Part shown: positions 30,091 to 33,698 of the stretch, piece by piece
Layout of the letters: every line of letters begins with the position of its first letter
How positions within the stretch are numbered: position 1 is the first letter of the stretch
NCBI GenBank assembly: GCA_035248685.1
Contig: DATFHF010000014.1
Span: forward strand, 133-64,132
Reading direction: 5' to 3'
From: Jatrophihabitans sp.
GTDB taxonomy: Bacteria > Actinomycetota > Actinomycetes > Mycobacteriales > Jatrophihabitantaceae
DNA: 64,000 nt
Translations under genes and position numbers: made by a program
The notes under the pieces: generated by a model
What the model saw: the letters and a program-made list of their open reading frames with translations, nothing else
What the model was told of the DNA's origin: nothing
The model's database searches: none

Positions 30091-31140
30091 CTACAGCGAT
30101 TTCGCGCGTTCGCGGATACGTAGCACATCCGCGACCACAAGGTACGTCTGCACAACACAGGTGTCGACTTCGTACGTGGTGACATCGGCGTGCACGCCCT
30201 TGCTCGCGAGTTCGTTGAGCGTGTTAAGCCGGGCATCGACGTCCTGGAGGGTCGCCTGAACCACGGCGCCGTTCTCATGCTTGCCCACGGTCTCGACCAC
30301 GTACTGCAAGAGTCGGTTCACGAAGGCCGCGTCGTTCAAGAGGTGTGGCTTACCGTCCGAACCCACGACTGGCTCCGATCGAGCCGGGTAGAGCTGGTCG
30401 GCGAGCGTCTTCAGCACGCGACGGCACGAGGTAAGCGCGTGCGCACGGTCCTCGGTCCCGCCATCCTTAAGTCGGCGATAGGCCACCTGGAACTGCTCTA
30501 GCGCGGGCGGCGAAATTGTCATGAGCTGCCCGTCGACATAGGTGCGCAGCCGATCGAACACCTCCGCCGTTGCCTCGCCAAAGGTCAATTCGTGCTCGGT
30601 CTCGGTGAGGAACTCCCAGAGCCGGTCCTTGATACGCGCGAGAACGTTGTCCAGCGGGATGCGCGTAGCCAGGAGAGTCGTGCGCAGCTTCTGCTGATCG
30701 GCCACGTGCTTGCCTAAGTCGTAGGTGTGCATGCCTGGCGGAGGCGGTACGAGCGCGGCAGCCTCCTGCTCGCGCAGCATCTCCACGGTCTCCTCGATCT
30801 GCTGGACGCTGCTGAGGTTCGCCTCCTCCTTCTCAGGCCGGAGTCGGCGACGCGTGATGTAATCGCGGTACTCCGCTAACCACTTTTCGGTCGCCTCTGC
30901 CCCAGGGATCGTTTTGAGTAGACGCGCAGCAAGAGGCTCTCGTTGCGCGTCAGACTTGTTCTCGAACTGATTCCGGACGTCGGTTGCCTCGAGCCCAAGC
31001 CACGCAAGGGCAACGCCATCGCCGCGGAGGGATGCGATCCGCTGACAGCGCCGGACCAGGGCGGCTACCGTAATCTCGGGCGCATCGAACTGGTCCATCG
31101 CCTCCTGGACGAGGACTGAGGCGCGGTCGAGATCTGGCAC
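30091..31140 (-). CDS. Abi-like protein (AbiTii-like N-terminus, Abi_C/HEPN-like C-terminus); candidate abortive-infection/defence protein
   Basis: 349 aa. The N-terminus ASVLVQEAMDQFDAPEITVAALVRRCQRIASLRGD..LAWLGLE resembles the AbiTii N-terminal helix pattern. The C-terminus RAHALTSCRRVLKTLADQLYP .. LNELASKGVHADVT .. VVQTYLVVADVL resembles Abi_C. Both calls are from memory only. Confidence 0.55.
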   Translation of the reverse strand: MPDLDRASVLVQEAMDQFDAPEITVAALVRRCQRIASLRGDGVALAWLGLEATDVRNQFENKSDAQREPLAARLLKTIPGAEATEKWLAEYRDYITRRRLRPEKEEANLSSVQQIEETVEMLREQEAAALVPPPPGMHTYDLGKHVADQQKLRTTLLATRIPLDNVLARIKDRLWEFLTETEHELTFGEATAEVFDRLRTYVDGQLMTISPPALEQFQVAYRRLKDGGTEDRAHALTSCRRVLKTLADQLYPARSEPVVGSDGKPHLLNDAAFVNRLLQYVVETVGKHENGAVVQATLQDVDARLNTLNELASKGVHADVTTYEVDTCVVQTYLVVADVLRIRERAKSL

Positions 31141-31271
31141 AACTCAAGCTTATCGGCTGACGACGACACGGTTGGTGAACACTTCGGCCTCGGATCAATC
31201 CATATCCGTTGCGGGGAGTAGGGGCCGGCCAGATTGACGGTGCGGTGTGCTTCGGGGGCGCGCCTCCGCCA

Positions 31272-32192
31272 TCAGCGGCCGTTGCGTCCGAGTCGATCAG
31301 ATGGGCCTGGAGTTGGACGCTCAAGGTATGCAGCCACGTCGGCATCGCTCGCACGGTCGGACCATCGGGCGAACATCTGTTCCGATTGCCAGCCGCAGCC
31401 GCCACAGATTGTTGTTTCCAAGAAACCTGATTCTGGCTCCTCAACCACCTCGACGTCTTCGTCGAGTCGATATGAGCTGCAGCGAGGGCACCGCTCGGGA
31501 TCGCCGTACTCCCGTCGATGAAGCAACCGTCCGAAGGTGGTGAGGAGATTCCCTGTTGCTTCCAGCACCAACTCAGCGTCGTCGGGGGTTGCATCGTTGT
31601 TGTGTTGTAGCCATACGGCGAGGTCCCAGACCTTGTCCACGAGTGTTTTAACGTAGGACCGGACGCGCCCCTCTGTAAGACGTTCAGCAAATATCTCCGC
31701 CCATCCCTTGAAGTCCGAGGTCTTCGGCCGTTCGGCAACCTCGCCGACCCATTCGTCGTTAAGGTGGTCCCTTACGAATGCGAGCAGCGAGTCGCGACAT
31801 TTGATTCCAATGGCCTGGAAATCCTCGGCTTCACCGGCGATGTCCATGGCATCAAGGGCCTGGCGATACCTTCGCCATGACCCAGAGAGCACCTCCTCGT
31901 GCGACTCATCAAGCTCACCTCGACTTCGTTGAGCCAGGAACAGCCCCAAGCCGAGATGGAAGATCAGCGCCTGTTGGACGTCAGGGAAATCGCTCTGCAG
32001 ATACAGATTCGTCGGGTCCGTGATGACCCACCAGCGCGTCTTGTCACAGTGCACGTCATACATTTCGTGGACGTGGCCCATGATGCGGTGGGACCCGACC
32101 TTCTGAACCAGACCGGCCTGATCGTCGGCGGGCGACTGAGAGTTGACATAGTCACGGATACGCCGCTCTTCATGCTCCGGGAGTTCAACCAT
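31272..32192 (-). CDS. hypothetical protein with C-terminal zinc ribbon
   Basis: 306-aa ORF. CPRCSS..(27 aa)..CGGCGW forms a 4-Cys ribbon. I do not recognise the N-terminal part (RWWVITDPTNLYLQSDFP). It lies 131 nt upstream of, and co-oriented with, the Abi-like gene. Confidence 0.6.
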   Translation of the reverse strand: MVELPEHEERRIRDYVNSQSPADDQAGLVQKVGSHRIMGHVHEMYDVHCDKTRWWVITDPTNLYLQSDFPDVQQALIFHLGLGLFLAQRSRGELDESHEEVLSGSWRRYRQALDAMDIAGEAEDFQAIGIKCRDSLLAFVRDHLNDEWVGEVAERPKTSDFKGWAEIFAERLTEGRVRSYVKTLVDKVWDLAVWLQHNNDATPDDAELVLEATGNLLTTFGRLLHRREYGDPERCPRCSSYRLDEDVEVVEEPESGFLETTICGGCGWQSEQMFARWSDRASDADVAAYLERPTPGPSDRLGRNGR

Positions 32193-32324
32193 CGTTCTCC
32201 TTGCGGTAGTCGCTTGCCTGACGACAGTAGGCGCCTAACCGGAGCAACTGATAAACGACACGACTCAGCCGCATCGCACATCGCTGTCACAACGCTGGTG
32301 GGCATCGTGGCCTAACCTCGGGCT

Positions 32325-33060
32325 GTGATGACCGTCGGAATCGATCTTTCGGCTGAGCCAGGTAAGACCGTGGCCGCCGTCGTGACTTGGAGCGCGGCGG
32401 GCGCGGCCATCAGCAAGCTTTCGCCGTCCGCAACTGACGCCGCGATCGTCAAACTTGCAGCTAGCGCAACGAAGGTGGGCATTGATTGTCCGCTCGGCTG
32501 GCCCGTGGCGTTCACAGACTTCGTTACTCGCCACCAGCGAGGCGAGATCAGGGCGGGCGAGGGCCAAGATTTCCTCGCTCGGAGGCACTTGGCTTATCGC
32601 ACAACGGATCTCGCGGTTCACAAGAGAGGGGGGCCGCTACCGCTGAGCGTTGCAACAGATCGCATCGGTCGAGCTGCGATGCGGGCGGCCGGTCTCTTGG
32701 CCGCACTTGACGTCGGCGTTGGCACCGGCGACCGTACGGGCAGCGGTCGTGTTGTCGAGGTATACCCGGCTGCGGCGTTGGAGCGGTGGGGATATGAGCC
32801 GCGCAGGTACAAGGGCAAGGGCAACCTGGCGTCTCCTGAGACAGATGGCGTGCGAGTTCTTCGATGAGGCCGATTGGCTGTCGATGGACGCAGACTCACG
32901 CACTATCTGCACAACGTCTGATGACGCTTTCGACGCAGTGATCGCCGCACTCAATGTCGCGGCAGCCGTTCATATCGGGAATGGGTTATGCAGCCCGATG
33001 AGCAAGAGCGTGACGCCGCGCGAACTGAGGGCTGGATCGCTGTGCCGACATGTAGTCTCA
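32325..33060 (+). pseudogene. DUF429-like (predicted RNase-H-fold) gene disrupted by two compensating frameshifts
   Basis: Frame 0 (32325 to ~32830) reads VGIDLSAEPGKT..DCPLGWP..RTTD..EVYPAAALERWGY..YKGKGN. Frame +1 (~32830 to ~32985) carries ..TSDDAFDAVIAALNVAAAV... Frame 0 resumes with PDEQERDAARTEGWIAVP. All three pieces match the DUF429 pattern. Confidence 0.65.
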
Positions 33061-33194
33061 GAGACCTTGATCCGCGAACAGGAGGCATGCTCGGCAAGGT
33101 TCCCGCGCCTAGCGTTTCGTTTGGCGCGCGTGGTGACGCCGGCCAGCAAGTATACCGACGGATCTCTATCGAACCCACGTCTCATTTCCGTCGA

Positions 33195-33692
33195 TCAGCG
33201 ACCCTGGCTGTACTTGTTGGGTCGGGAGCCAGCCTGTGCGGGCGACCAGGTCTCGCGGGTGAGCTCGTACTCGACTTCGCCGAGCTCTTCAACGGGGATC
33301 GGGTCCGGATATGAACGCGCGAGCGAAGATGAGCCCGACGGACTGCATGGTTGCTCGTGAAGCGGCGTTGTCGGCCATGGCTTGCGCGAAGATCCGGGTC
33401 AGGCCAACTTCGGTAAACCCGTACCGCAGCAGTTCGCGGGCCCTCCGATGCGTAACCGCGGCGCCAGTGTCGCCGCAACAGTCGGTAGCCGAGGTCGGCC
33501 TCGCCGGCGACCTTGGTTGGTCTGGCCCGTTCGGCGGCTGCAGGCCCACCAACCGATGAAGACGACGTCGACGAATCCGGCCCAGAAACCGAGGCCGGCG
33601 ACCTGCCGCGCAACGGAAAGCCTACGCCGATGCGACCGCTCAACCTCGGCGCGTGACTGCGGCGCCTCGCTGGCCCGACAACCGGATAACAC
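33195..33692 (-). pseudogene. GNAT (RimJ/RimL-like) acetyltransferase with multiple frameshifts
   Basis: GNAT pieces are split over at least three reverse frames: GLGFWAGFVDVVFIGWW.., ..ADLGYRLLRRHWRRGYASEG.., ..ARELLRYGFTEVGLTRIFAQAMADNAASRATMQSVGL.., and ..VEELGEVEYELTRETWSP. Confidence 0.6.
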
Positions 33693-33698
33693 AGGCGG

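What the first reader, a model, noticed from the sequence alone, without database searches (positions are those of the whole stretch)
30091..32192. Two-gene candidate abortive-infection/defence cassette: zinc-ribbon protein plus Abi-like (AbiTii / Abi_C-like) protein
Immediately downstream of kgd, after about 400 bp of non-coding DNA, two co-oriented minus-strand genes lie in a lower-GC patch, separated by 131 nt.

The downstream 349-aa protein has an N-terminus resembling the AbiTii N-terminal helical domain. Its C-terminus has the layout I associate with Abi_C/HEPN-like domains (helix RAHALTSCRRVLKTLADQLYP, then LNELASKGVHAD, then a hydrophobic helix).

The upstream 306-aa protein is unrecognisable apart from a terminal CPRC..CGGC zinc ribbon.

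The neighbourhood consists of decayed accessory genes (a frameshifted DUF429 nuclease-like gene and a frameshifted GNAT) and an APH(6)-like kinase. That is the kind of variable island in which defence genes accumulate. The pairing is not one I know as a named system.
Basis: partly seen in the sequence, partly recalled or inferred. Interest (0 to 1): 0.7.

Follow-up and report, generated by a model that had tools for sequence, protein, structure and literature searches.

The report
Two unrelated mobile genes, not a cassette
The two neighbouring genes are real, but they are not a conserved defence pair: one belongs to a family predicted in 2013 to act in abortive infection (AbiTii domain fused to a c2405-type HEPN domain), and the other is a widespread uncharacterised zinc-ribbon protein that lies beside it only in this strain.

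Summary
Two intact, co-oriented minus-strand genes (349 aa and 306 aa, 131 nt apart) lie in the lowest-GC patch of the window, 407 nt after kgd.

- None of 80 loci with a relative of the 349-aa gene also carries the 306-aa gene.
- None of 83 loci with a relative of the 306-aa gene carries the 349-aa gene.
- The closest relatives of each (81% identity) also lack the partner.
- Neither gene has any other conserved neighbour.

The 349-aa protein aligns end to end with the E. coli CFT073 gene inferred to be c2405 (E = 2e-30; hhalign probability 99.75%). It therefore belongs to the family described by Anantharaman et al. 2013: an N-terminal AbiTii domain fused to a c2405-type HEPN domain ("conserved H, lacks R"). 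It is not Abi_C. Relatives sit in defence islands, at a prophage edge and on plasmids. No member has been tested experimentally, as far as I could find.

The 306-aa protein belongs to a large unannotated family (1,263 representatives). It has an α/β N-domain, a helical core and a C4 zinc ribbon. It is usually solitary and often on mobile DNA. Its function is unknown.

Overall this is a new member of a known kind, of low interest.

The parts
30091..31140 (-). geneB: 349-aa protein with an AbiTii N-terminal domain and a c2405-type HEPN C-terminal domain (GTG start)
   Evidence: ORF. There are 156 homologues. It aligns full length with the E. coli CFT073 c2405 candidate: BLASTP E = 2e-30 over residues 1-348 and hhalign probability 99.75%. 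The N-terminus is conserved from residue 1 in the family and in E. coli, which supports the GTG at 31140 over the ATG at 31098 chosen by the gene caller.
30571..31140 (-). geneB residues about 1-190: AbiTii N-terminal domain
   Evidence: PADLOC AbiTii E = 7.3e-5, residues 11-186 matching profile positions 3-164 of 185. Pfam PF18864 scores 17 bits, below the 27.6-bit gathering score. 26 of 58 family members hit at E <= 0.01 and 38 of 58 at E <= 1. Invariant residues: R30, R34, R39, D41, R98. E116 is nearly invariant.
30094..30528 (-). geneB residues about 205-349: c2405-type HEPN-like helical domain with motifs SCRRvLKtlAD.LYP and SKGVH
   Evidence: Invariant residues: R240, K244, A247, P252, K314, G315, H317, E324, T332, Y333. 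The same motifs occur in the E. coli protein: TCRRLLEGLADELYPA, NKGVHAE, TYLVVADLL. Positions 310-312 are E, L, A, so there is no Arg 4-6 residues before H317, matching the published 'conserved H but lacks R'. The AF2 model has helices 211-226, 229-250, 273-285, 291-314 and 322-348.
31141..31271 (.). 131-nt spacer between geneA and geneB
   Evidence: No terminator-like or promoter-like site was found by the simple scans. No Rfam match. The spacer is not conserved upstream of geneB homologues elsewhere. Whether the two genes are co-transcribed is undetermined.
31272..32192 (-). geneA: 306-aa protein of a large uncharacterised family
   Evidence: ORF. There are 218 close homologues. The exhaustive profile search finds 1,263 representatives at E <= 0.001 and 202 at E <= 1e-30. 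The window protein has no hit at or below E = 0.01 in Pfam, NCBIfam, PADLOC or PHROGs (only chance-level matches at E >= 0.089), and none of the 50 close family members has a Pfam hit at E <= 0.01. The AF2 model has pLDDT 87.6.
31983..32192 (-). geneA residues 1-70: N-terminal helix plus four-stranded beta domain
   Evidence: AF2 secondary structure: H6-18, E26-37, E40-49, E53-57, E62-65. Y15 and Y64 are invariant; R53, W55, V56 and N62 are nearly invariant across relatives of 27-46% identity.
31506..31979 (-). geneA residues 72-229: helical bundle core with motifs EAEDFQAvG.rCRe.LL and W.L..WLtH...A...DAE
   Evidence: H79, R133, W164 and W189 are invariant; E121, Q126, R178 and H197 are nearly invariant. 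Foldseek gives only weak matches to small HEPN toxins (8xeh_B, 7bxo_F: probability 0.96-0.97, target TM 0.52-0.57, E 0.13-0.19), alongside generic four-helix bundles. The profile comparison with geneB's C-terminal domain is not significant.
31389..31496 (-). geneA residues 233-268: C4 zinc ribbon (CPRC ... CGGC)
   Evidence: C235, C238, C263 and C266 are invariant. Zn_Ribbon_TF is hit by 13 of 45 family members, best E = 2.4e-4. The PDB profile search hits zinc ribbons only: ShdD E = 0.0026, and TFIIB and RPB9 at E = 0.17-0.37.
32197..32202 (-). AAGGAG ribosome-binding site of geneA
   Evidence: Read directly from the sequence, 4 nt upstream of the ATG at 32192.

Best explanation
These are two independently mobile accessory genes that lie side by side in this one strain. 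They are not a two-component system.

GeneB (349 aa) is a stand-alone member of the AbiTii-NTD + c2405-type HEPN family. The published model for this architecture is a prediction and is not shown here. In it, the N-terminal AbiTii domain recognises a phage component and otherwise restrains the C-terminal domain. The C-terminal HEPN-like domain is non-canonical: it has the conserved His (H317 in K-G-V-H) but lacks the usual Arg. It also carries an invariant Arg, R240, in the SCRR helix. On infection this domain would act as an RNase toxin and abort the infection.

GeneA (306 aa) belongs to a large unannotated family built from an N-terminal alpha/beta domain, a helical bundle and a TFIIB-like C4 zinc ribbon. 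It is normally a solitary gene and often sits on plasmids, IS-flanked units or the edges of integrated elements. My best guess is a nucleic-acid-binding accessory protein of mobile elements. That guess is weakly supported.
For: Pair not conserved:
- 0 of 80 geneB loci hold geneA within 10 kb, and 0 of 83 geneA loci hold geneB.
- The closest relative of each gene (81% identity) lacks the partner.
- Clustering of neighbouring ORFs finds no recurrent partner for either gene; the largest real cluster covers at most 7 of about 80 loci.
- The one other contig with the pair is 99.98% identical to the window.
- GC3 differs between the two genes, 0.658 against 0.777, with kgd at 0.899.

GeneB family assignment:
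- AbiTii hits.
- Full-length homology to the E. coli CFT073 protein at the c2405 position. tcpC = c2398 is confirmed by PMC8147327.
- The family description in PMC3710099 matches the invariant KGVH with no Arg 4-6 residues upstream.

GeneB contexts:
- Type ISP R-M.
- Shedu SduA_C, TacA/GNAT and AbiEi/AbiEii.
- HEPN_AbiV and serine recombinases.
- A prophage edge next to an integrase.
- 29 plasmids.

GeneA:
- 1,263 family representatives.
- Zinc ribbon.
- Plasmid and mobile-element contexts.
Against: - The two genes are co-oriented and only 131 nt apart, with no detectable terminator between them. Co-transcription and a strain-specific functional link cannot be excluded.
- No member of the c2405 family has been tested experimentally in the literature I could search. 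Both the defence role and the RNase activity are predictions.
- The HEPN assignment of the c2405 domain rests on the 2013 paper. Pfam HEPN or DUF4145 models do not reach significance on geneB or its family. The E. coli protein itself hits DUF4145 only at E = 0.38. The full-length AF2 model has no significant PDB match.
- GeneA neighbourhoods are mostly ordinary. Among 148 neighbouring ORFs I found only 1 CBASS cyclase, 1 LmuA and a few integrases and transposases.
Confidence: 0.75

Rival explanations
1. The pair is a functional two-gene defence or toxin-antitoxin-like cassette newly assembled in this lineage. GeneA would act as sensor, regulator or antitoxin, and geneB as the effector.
For: - The genes share orientation, are 131 nt apart and have no predicted terminator between them.
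- Both lie in the same low-GC patch.
- The lactococcal AbiT system does need two proteins, AbiTi and AbiTii (PMC13064643).
- Some lineages show geneB or geneA tightly coupled to other genes: an overlapping 902-aa helicase after geneB in Microbacterium, and an overlapping 480-aa ORF before geneA in M. avium.
Against: - There is no co-occurrence in 163 related loci or in the closest relatives.
- GeneA has no PADLOC match of any kind.
- The two genes differ in GC3 by 12 points.
- Each gene is normally solitary.
Confidence: 0.08
2. GeneB is not an anti-phage gene. It would instead be a mobile-element addiction or competition toxin, or a domesticated protein with a housekeeping RNA-processing role.
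For: - It occurs on 29 plasmids and in islands rich in toxin-antitoxin genes.
- HEPN domains are also common in toxin-antitoxin and RNA-processing systems (PMC3710099).
- The family lacks the canonical catalytic Arg.
Against: - It is repeatedly adjacent to bona fide defence genes and sits at a prophage edge.
- It is homologous to AbiTii, a component of an experimentally shown Abi system.
- It has no cognate antitoxin-like conserved neighbour.
Confidence: 0.17
3. GeneA's helical core is itself a divergent DUF4145/c2405-like HEPN domain. The locus would then hold two independent HEPN-type conflict genes.
For: - Foldseek matches to the MNT-associated HEPN toxins 8xeh_B, 7bxo_F and 8yuf_B have probability 0.92-0.97 and target TM 0.50-0.57.
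- The two proteins share a co-linear helix and motif layout: a 'CR[DE]xL' helix, then a loop, then a helix ending in an (almost) invariant His followed by 'A/V-T-x-x-[DE]-A/V'. The permissive hhalign alignment spans 115 columns and pairs CR with CR and H197 with H317.
- DUF4145 HEPN domains are reported fused to zinc ribbons (PMC3710099).
Against: - hhalign probability is below 1% in every setting.
- Foldseek E-values are 0.13-0.19, and cytochrome b562-type bundles score the same.
- No HEPN or DUF4145 Pfam hit appears among the 25 most recurrent families in 45 diverse members at E <= 1 (67 families matched; only the first 25 are listed).
Confidence: 0.25

Closest known systems
AbiTii-NTD + c2405-family HEPN proteins (Anantharaman, Makarova, Burroughs, Koonin and Aravind 2013, Biol Direct 8:15; prototype E. 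coli CFT073 c2405)
   Same: - Same two-domain architecture over the full length: E = 2e-30 and hhalign probability 99.75% against the E. coli protein.
- Same signature motifs.
- Same 'conserved His, no Arg' feature.
- Solitary gene in islands and mobile elements.
   Different: - The window protein lacks the C-terminal helix-hairpin-helix extension of the E. coli protein (HHH_3, residues 332-386).
- It is only 24% identical to the E. coli protein.
- It belongs to an actinobacterial subgroup with 35-89% identity among members.
Lactococcus lactis AbiT (AbiTi + AbiTii; Bouchard et al. 2002, cited from PMC13064643)
   Same: The N-terminal ~190 residues of geneB are homologous to AbiTii.
   Different: - Lactococcal AbiTii has no HEPN domain and needs the separate AbiTi protein.
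- Here the effector-like domain is fused to the AbiTii domain, and no AbiTi-like partner exists. GeneA has no PADLOC hit, and the family has no conserved neighbour.
Abi_C (PF14355) / AbiJ-type HEPN proteins
   Same: The general logic is the same: an N-terminal sensor-like domain plus a C-terminal helical HEPN-superfamily domain in a single Abi protein (PMC3710099).
   Different: There is no Abi_C hit on geneB at E <= 10. No family member hits it at E <= 0.01, and it is not among the 25 most recurrent families at E <= 1. The AbiJ family keeps the Rx4-6H motif, and geneB does not.
Zinc-ribbon-fused DUF4145-like HEPN proteins (PMC3710099, Table 1)
   Same: GeneA has a helical bundle followed by a C4 zinc ribbon, and it resembles HEPN toxins weakly in structure.
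   Different: There is no significant sequence or profile similarity to DUF4145, c2405 or any Pfam HEPN family. GeneA also has an extra conserved N-terminal alpha/beta domain.

Membership tests
AbiTii-NTD + c2405 HEPN family (Anantharaman 2013) | N-terminal AbiTii domain of about 180 aa | tested here: met
   PADLOC AbiTii gives E = 7.3e-5 over residues 11-186. Pfam PF18864 is below gathering for the window protein (17 bits against 27.6) but is hit by 26 of 58 family members at E <= 0.01, best 8.6e-8.
AbiTii-NTD + c2405 HEPN family (Anantharaman 2013) | C-terminal domain homologous to E. coli CFT073 c2405 | tested here: met
   BLASTP E = 2e-30 over residues 1-348, and hhalign probability 99.75%, E = 2.8e-27. 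Caveat: c2405 was identified by position, as the 7th annotated gene after tcpC = c2398, and by its AbiTii + HhH architecture. The old locus tag itself was not seen.
AbiTii-NTD + c2405 HEPN family (Anantharaman 2013) | Conserved His but no Arg of the Rx4-6H motif | tested here: met
   K314, G315 and H317 are invariant in 58 sequences. Positions 310-312 are E, L, A.
AbiTii-NTD + c2405 HEPN family (Anantharaman 2013) | HEPN fold and RNase activity of the C-terminal domain | tested here: inconclusive
   The AF2 model shows a helical bundle with the His in the loop before the last helix. The full-length Foldseek search found no significant PDB match, and there are no Pfam HEPN or DUF4145 hits. Enzymatic activity cannot be tested with these tools.
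Lactococcal AbiT two-component system | Adjacent AbiTi partner gene | tested here: not met
   GeneA has no PADLOC or Pfam match. GeneB homologues have no conserved neighbour in 80 loci.
Abi_C (PF14355) / AbiJ HEPN | Profile match to Abi_C, with the Rx4-6H motif | tested here: not met
   No Abi_C hit at E <= 10 for the protein. No family member hits it at E <= 0.01, and it is not among the recurrent families at E <= 1. The motif Arg is absent.
Conserved two-gene defence cassette (any) | The two genes are neighbours in other, diverged genomes | tested here: not met
   0 of 80 geneB loci and 0 of 83 geneA loci carry the partner. The closest relatives lack it. The only other instance is 99.98% identical DNA.
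Zinc-ribbon proteins (geneA C-terminus) | Two CxxC pairs forming a C4 ribbon | tested here: met
   C235, C238, C263 and C266 are invariant across relatives of 27-46% identity. Zn_Ribbon_TF is hit by 13 of 45 members. The PDB profile search hits ShdD, TFIIB and RPB9 ribbons. AF2 places beta strands at 243-250 and 256-263.
HEPN superfamily (geneA core) | Four-helix up-down bundle with a conserved catalytic His (and Arg), detectable by profile or structure | tested here: inconclusive
   Foldseek matches HEPN toxins at E 0.13-0.19 with target TM 0.5-0.57, no better than cytochrome b562. hhalign against geneB's C-terminal domain gives probability below 1%. No Pfam HEPN hit appears among the listed families.

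The most novel reading that the evidence does not exclude
The geneA family has 1,263 representatives at 50% identity, no Pfam, NCBIfam or PADLOC model, and an architecture of alpha/beta N-domain, helical core and C4 zinc ribbon. It could be an unrecognised single-gene conflict or defence module of plasmids and integrative elements. Its core may be a highly divergent DUF4145/c2405-like HEPN domain. In that case its position next to an AbiTii-HEPN gene would reflect a small defence hotspot downstream of kgd.
Probability: 0.2. Interest if true: 0.5.

Novelty: new member of a known kind. Interest (0 to 1): 0.2.

Why it matters
As a proposed new two-gene defence system, the finding does not stand, so it should not go forward as a new system.

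Three things remain useful:
- GeneB is an actinobacterial example of the AbiTii + c2405-HEPN architecture. That architecture was predicted in 2013 and, as far as I could find, has never been tested. It would be a clean single-gene candidate for actinophage challenge and for asking how a HEPN domain without the canonical Arg works.
- Current Pfam and PADLOC models barely detect this subgroup. The window protein scores below the Pfam gathering threshold, so annotation pipelines will miss it.
- GeneA marks a large, unnamed, mobile-element-associated protein family that deserves a family model and a defence-enrichment test.

Tried and rejected
- **Abi_C / HEPN Pfam assignment for geneB.** No hits, so rejected in favour of c2405.
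- **Structure search of full-length geneB** against PDB and BFVD (the viral predicted-structure library). Nothing scored below E = 0.29. The long 139-209 helix probably dominates the search.
- **Sequence and profile searches against PDB** for both families. These returned only zinc ribbons for geneA and nothing for geneB.
- **Is the 411-aa gene upstream of the Streptosporangium geneB homologue a geneA relative?** No.
- **A conserved partner for either gene**, sought by clustering neighbouring ORFs. None found. The M. avium HTH_26 + 480-aa upstream genes recur in only 5 loci, and the Microbacterium helicase in only 4 loci.
- **Island boundaries.** No tRNA near the locus, and no flanking direct or inverted repeats beyond chance-like short matches. 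No synteny between the window's neighbours and any related locus.
- **An RNA partner**, as in the AbiD, AbiF and AbiV systems. No conserved non-coding sequence lies next to geneB homologues, and there is no Rfam match.
- **Fused domains in long geneA relatives.** Only a SEC-C motif (2 proteins) and GGACT (1 protein), which are uninformative.
- **Phage genomes.** Neither protein matches the INPHARED phage collection. Each has a single hit in IMG/VR.
- **PDB sequence searches for the APH and DUF429 neighbours.** Nothing found. These neighbours were confirmed instead from precomputed Pfam hits.
Full report
**Observation**

The window holds two intact ORFs on the minus strand: 30091..31140 (349 aa, "geneB", downstream) and 31272..32192 (306 aa, "geneA", upstream). 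They are 131 nt apart. GeneB ends 407 nt from the stop of a 1,291-aa kgd/sucA-type gene. Precomputed Pfam hits on the source contig confirm that gene's identity (2-oxogl_dehyd_N, E1_dh, Transket_pyr).

GC is 0.587 for geneA and 0.633 for geneB, against 0.674 for the window. The lowest-GC 1-kb window of the whole 64 kb lies on geneA.

There is an APH_6_hur kinase and a DUF429 gene split into two pieces. A GNAT remnant is only weakly supported.

Both ORFs are real genes. Each has hundreds of homologues with strongly conserved columns. GeneA has an AAGGAG ribosome-binding site.

**Is it a cassette?**

I collected loci for both families:
- 72 loci encoding geneB relatives from one-genome-per-species contigs, with 10 kb of flank on each side.
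- 80 metagenome loci encoding geneA relatives.
- Further loci from exact-protein look-ups and viral contigs.

tblastn shows that 0 of 80 geneB loci contain a geneA relative and 0 of 83 geneA loci contain a geneB relative. Of these, 70 geneB loci have enough upstream DNA and 51 geneA loci have enough downstream DNA to show a partner if it were there.

The closest relatives give the same answer. The 81%-identical geneB homologue sits in a defence island without geneA. The 81%-identical geneA homologue is followed, after a 128-nt gap, by an unrelated ORF.

The only other contig with the pair is 99.98% identical to the window over 6.2 kb. It is the same strain sampled twice.

Clustering all neighbouring ORFs reveals no recurrent partner for either gene. 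Lineage-restricted couplings do exist:
- A 902-aa AAA_30/UvrD_C helicase overlaps the end of geneB in Microbacterium.
- HTH_26 plus a 480-aa ORF lie upstream of geneA in a mycobacterial sub-lineage.

Each of these covers only 4-5 loci.

The window's locus has no flanking repeats and no nearby tRNA, and it shares no synteny with any related locus. GC3 differs by 12 points between the two genes, which fits separate histories.

**GeneB**

The AbiTii signal:
- PADLOC's AbiTii model matches residues 11-186 at E = 7.3e-5.
- Pfam AbiTii scores below its gathering threshold on the window protein (17 bits against 27.6).
- At family level, 26 of 58 members hit it at E <= 0.01 (best 8.6e-8), and 38 of 58 at E <= 1.
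- No Abi_C or other HEPN Pfam family appears.

The literature search led to Anantharaman et al. 2013 (PMC3710099). [quoted passage not shown]

I located the corresponding E. coli CFT073 gene in three steps:
- tcpC is c2398 (PMC8147327).
- The seventh annotated gene after it is a 390-aa "ComEA family" protein.
- That protein has a C-terminal HHH_3 domain and a faint DUF4145 hit at E = 0.38.

GeneB aligns with this protein from residue 1 to 348 (BLASTP E = 2e-30, 24% identity). The geneB family profile aligns to it with hhalign probability 99.75%.

The shared motifs are TCRRxLxxLADxLYPA, NKGVHA and TYLVVADLL. In the 58-sequence alignment, R240, K244, K314, G315 and H317 are invariant. The positions 4-6 residues before H317 are E, L, A. 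This matches the published "His without Arg" signature exactly.

GeneB is thus a new, actinobacterial member of a family described in 2013.

Its homologues lie in the following contexts:
- Next to Type ISP restriction enzymes.
- Next to Shedu SduA_C, TacA/GNAT and AbiEi/AbiEii.
- Next to HEPN_AbiV and serine recombinases.
- Beside a prophage integrase.
- In the E. coli serU island with TcpC.
- On 29 plasmids.

I found no experimental study of any c2405-type protein. The 2026 lactococcal Abi review only repeats the 2013 inference.

**How geneB most likely works**

This section is inferred, not shown. It follows the model proposed for Abi N-terminal-domain/HEPN fusions (PMC3710099). The AbiTii domain would bind a phage component and relieve inhibition of the C-terminal HEPN-like domain. 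That domain would then cleave RNA and stop growth.

The fold and the activity remain unverified here. The AF2 model (pLDDT 84.6) is all-helical, and the invariant His sits in the loop before the last helix. Full-length Foldseek searches of PDB and BFVD gave nothing significant. No RNA partner is indicated.

**GeneA**

The window protein has no hit at or below E = 0.01 in Pfam, NCBIfam, PADLOC or PHROGs (only chance-level matches at E >= 0.089), and none of the 50 close family members has a Pfam hit at E <= 0.01.

An exhaustive profile search finds 1,263 cluster representatives at E <= 0.001. The family is therefore large and unnamed.

The AF2 model (pLDDT 87.6) shows three parts: an N-terminal helix plus four strands, a five-helix core, and a C-terminal beta-ribbon.

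Across relatives of 27-46% identity:
- The four cysteines (C235, C238, C263, C266) are invariant.
- Y15, Y64, H79, R133, W164 and W189 are invariant.
- H197 is nearly invariant.

Only zinc-ribbon models match: Zn_Ribbon_TF in 13 of 45 members, and ShdD, TFIIB and RPB9 in the PDB.

Foldseek gives weak matches of the helical core to small HEPN toxins (E 0.13-0.19, target TM 0.5-0.57). Generic four-helix bundles score equally well.

GeneA's core and geneB's C-terminal domain have a co-linear layout of helices and of the "CR...H" motifs. A permissive hhalign alignment pairs those motifs, but the probability is below 1% in every setting. I treat this as a lead, not a result.

Rare fusions (SEC-C motif, GGACT) are uninformative.

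Genomic contexts of geneA:
- The edge of an AICE (an actinomycete integrative and conjugative element), near CBASS, in Kribbella.
- An IS256-flanked unit present twice in M. avium.
- The edge of an integrated element in Microbacterium.
- 15 plasmids, including the 5.85-kb pAES4 and a Corynebacterium plasmid region with N6-methylases, NYN and DUF262.

A census of 148 non-redundant ORFs within 3 kb of geneA in 46 loci is mostly ordinary genes. It includes a few integrases and transposases and only isolated defence hits. No background control was available.

My best guess is a nucleic-acid-binding accessory protein of mobile elements. A defence role is possible but unsupported.

**Verdict**

- The specific Abi_C assignment is wrong.
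- The headline claim of a new two-gene defence cassette is not supported.
- GeneB is a new member of a known, computationally predicted but untested family.
- GeneA is an unnamed family of unknown function.
- Interest is low. A modest residual case remains for studying the geneA family and for using geneB as a test case for Arg-less HEPN Abi proteins.

Noticed in passing
L005:8001-11728, also L006, L012 and L014 (Microbacterium sp. Gd 4-13 and VKM Ac-2870): The stop of the geneB homologue overlaps the start of a 902-aa AAA_30/UvrD_C_2 helicase gene (9020 against 9023). This may be a lineage-specific two-gene form of the AbiTii-HEPN module. It was seen in only 4 loci from 2 organisms.
   Followed up: partly
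L167:7581-10966 and L168:7581-10966 (M. avium subsp. hominissuis chromosome): There are two identical copies of a unit made of an integrase fragment, an HTH_26 gene, a 480-aa unknown ORF and geneA, flanked by IS256-type (Transposase_mut) genes. The 480-aa ORF overlaps the geneA start by 4 nt. The same HTH_26 + 480-aa upstream pair occurs in L096, L100 and L102.
   Followed up: partly
L010 and L011 (Propionibacteriaceae bacterium AM104-82; Granulicoccus phenolivorans DSM 17626): The 309 nt upstream and 410 nt downstream of their geneB homologues are 100% identical between the two records, which carry different names. This suggests either the same organism or a very recent transfer.
   Followed up: no
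window 21272-42192, compared with L170: The window differs from the public contig that encodes the identical geneA protein (ERZ27257121 k141_24677) by 21 substitutions and no gaps over 20,921 nt. A contig from a different sample (SRR5195117) differs by 1 substitution over 6,178 nt.
   Followed up: no
window 32325-33698: The stretch between geneA and the APH_6_hur gene has no called gene in the source contig. In the twin contig it is called as two pieces, 179 aa (DUF429) and 171 aa.
   Followed up: partly
L165:17764-24768 (E. coli CFT073 serU island): The c2405 candidate lies in the same island as the TIR virulence factor TcpC, a second TIR-domain protein, a macro-domain protein, a MobQ relaxase and RepL. 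Immediately downstream of c2405, in the same orientation, is an unannotated 320-aa gene with no Pfam hit.
   Followed up: no
L175:604-1074 and L166:9372-9773: The two closest geneA relatives that have upstream DNA each carry a PIN-domain gene just upstream (PIN_10 in L175, a faint PIN hit in L166). The window has none.
   Followed up: no
L173:6977-8289 (Arthrobacter sp. FW305-BF8 plasmid) and L172:1216-2166 (Paracoccus aestuarii pAES4): On the Arthrobacter plasmid, the geneA homologue overlaps a downstream 155-aa hypothetical gene by 4 nt. On the 5.85-kb pAES4, a geneA homologue is one of the few non-backbone genes, alongside a RelE/HigA pair and a WGR-domain gene.
   Followed up: no
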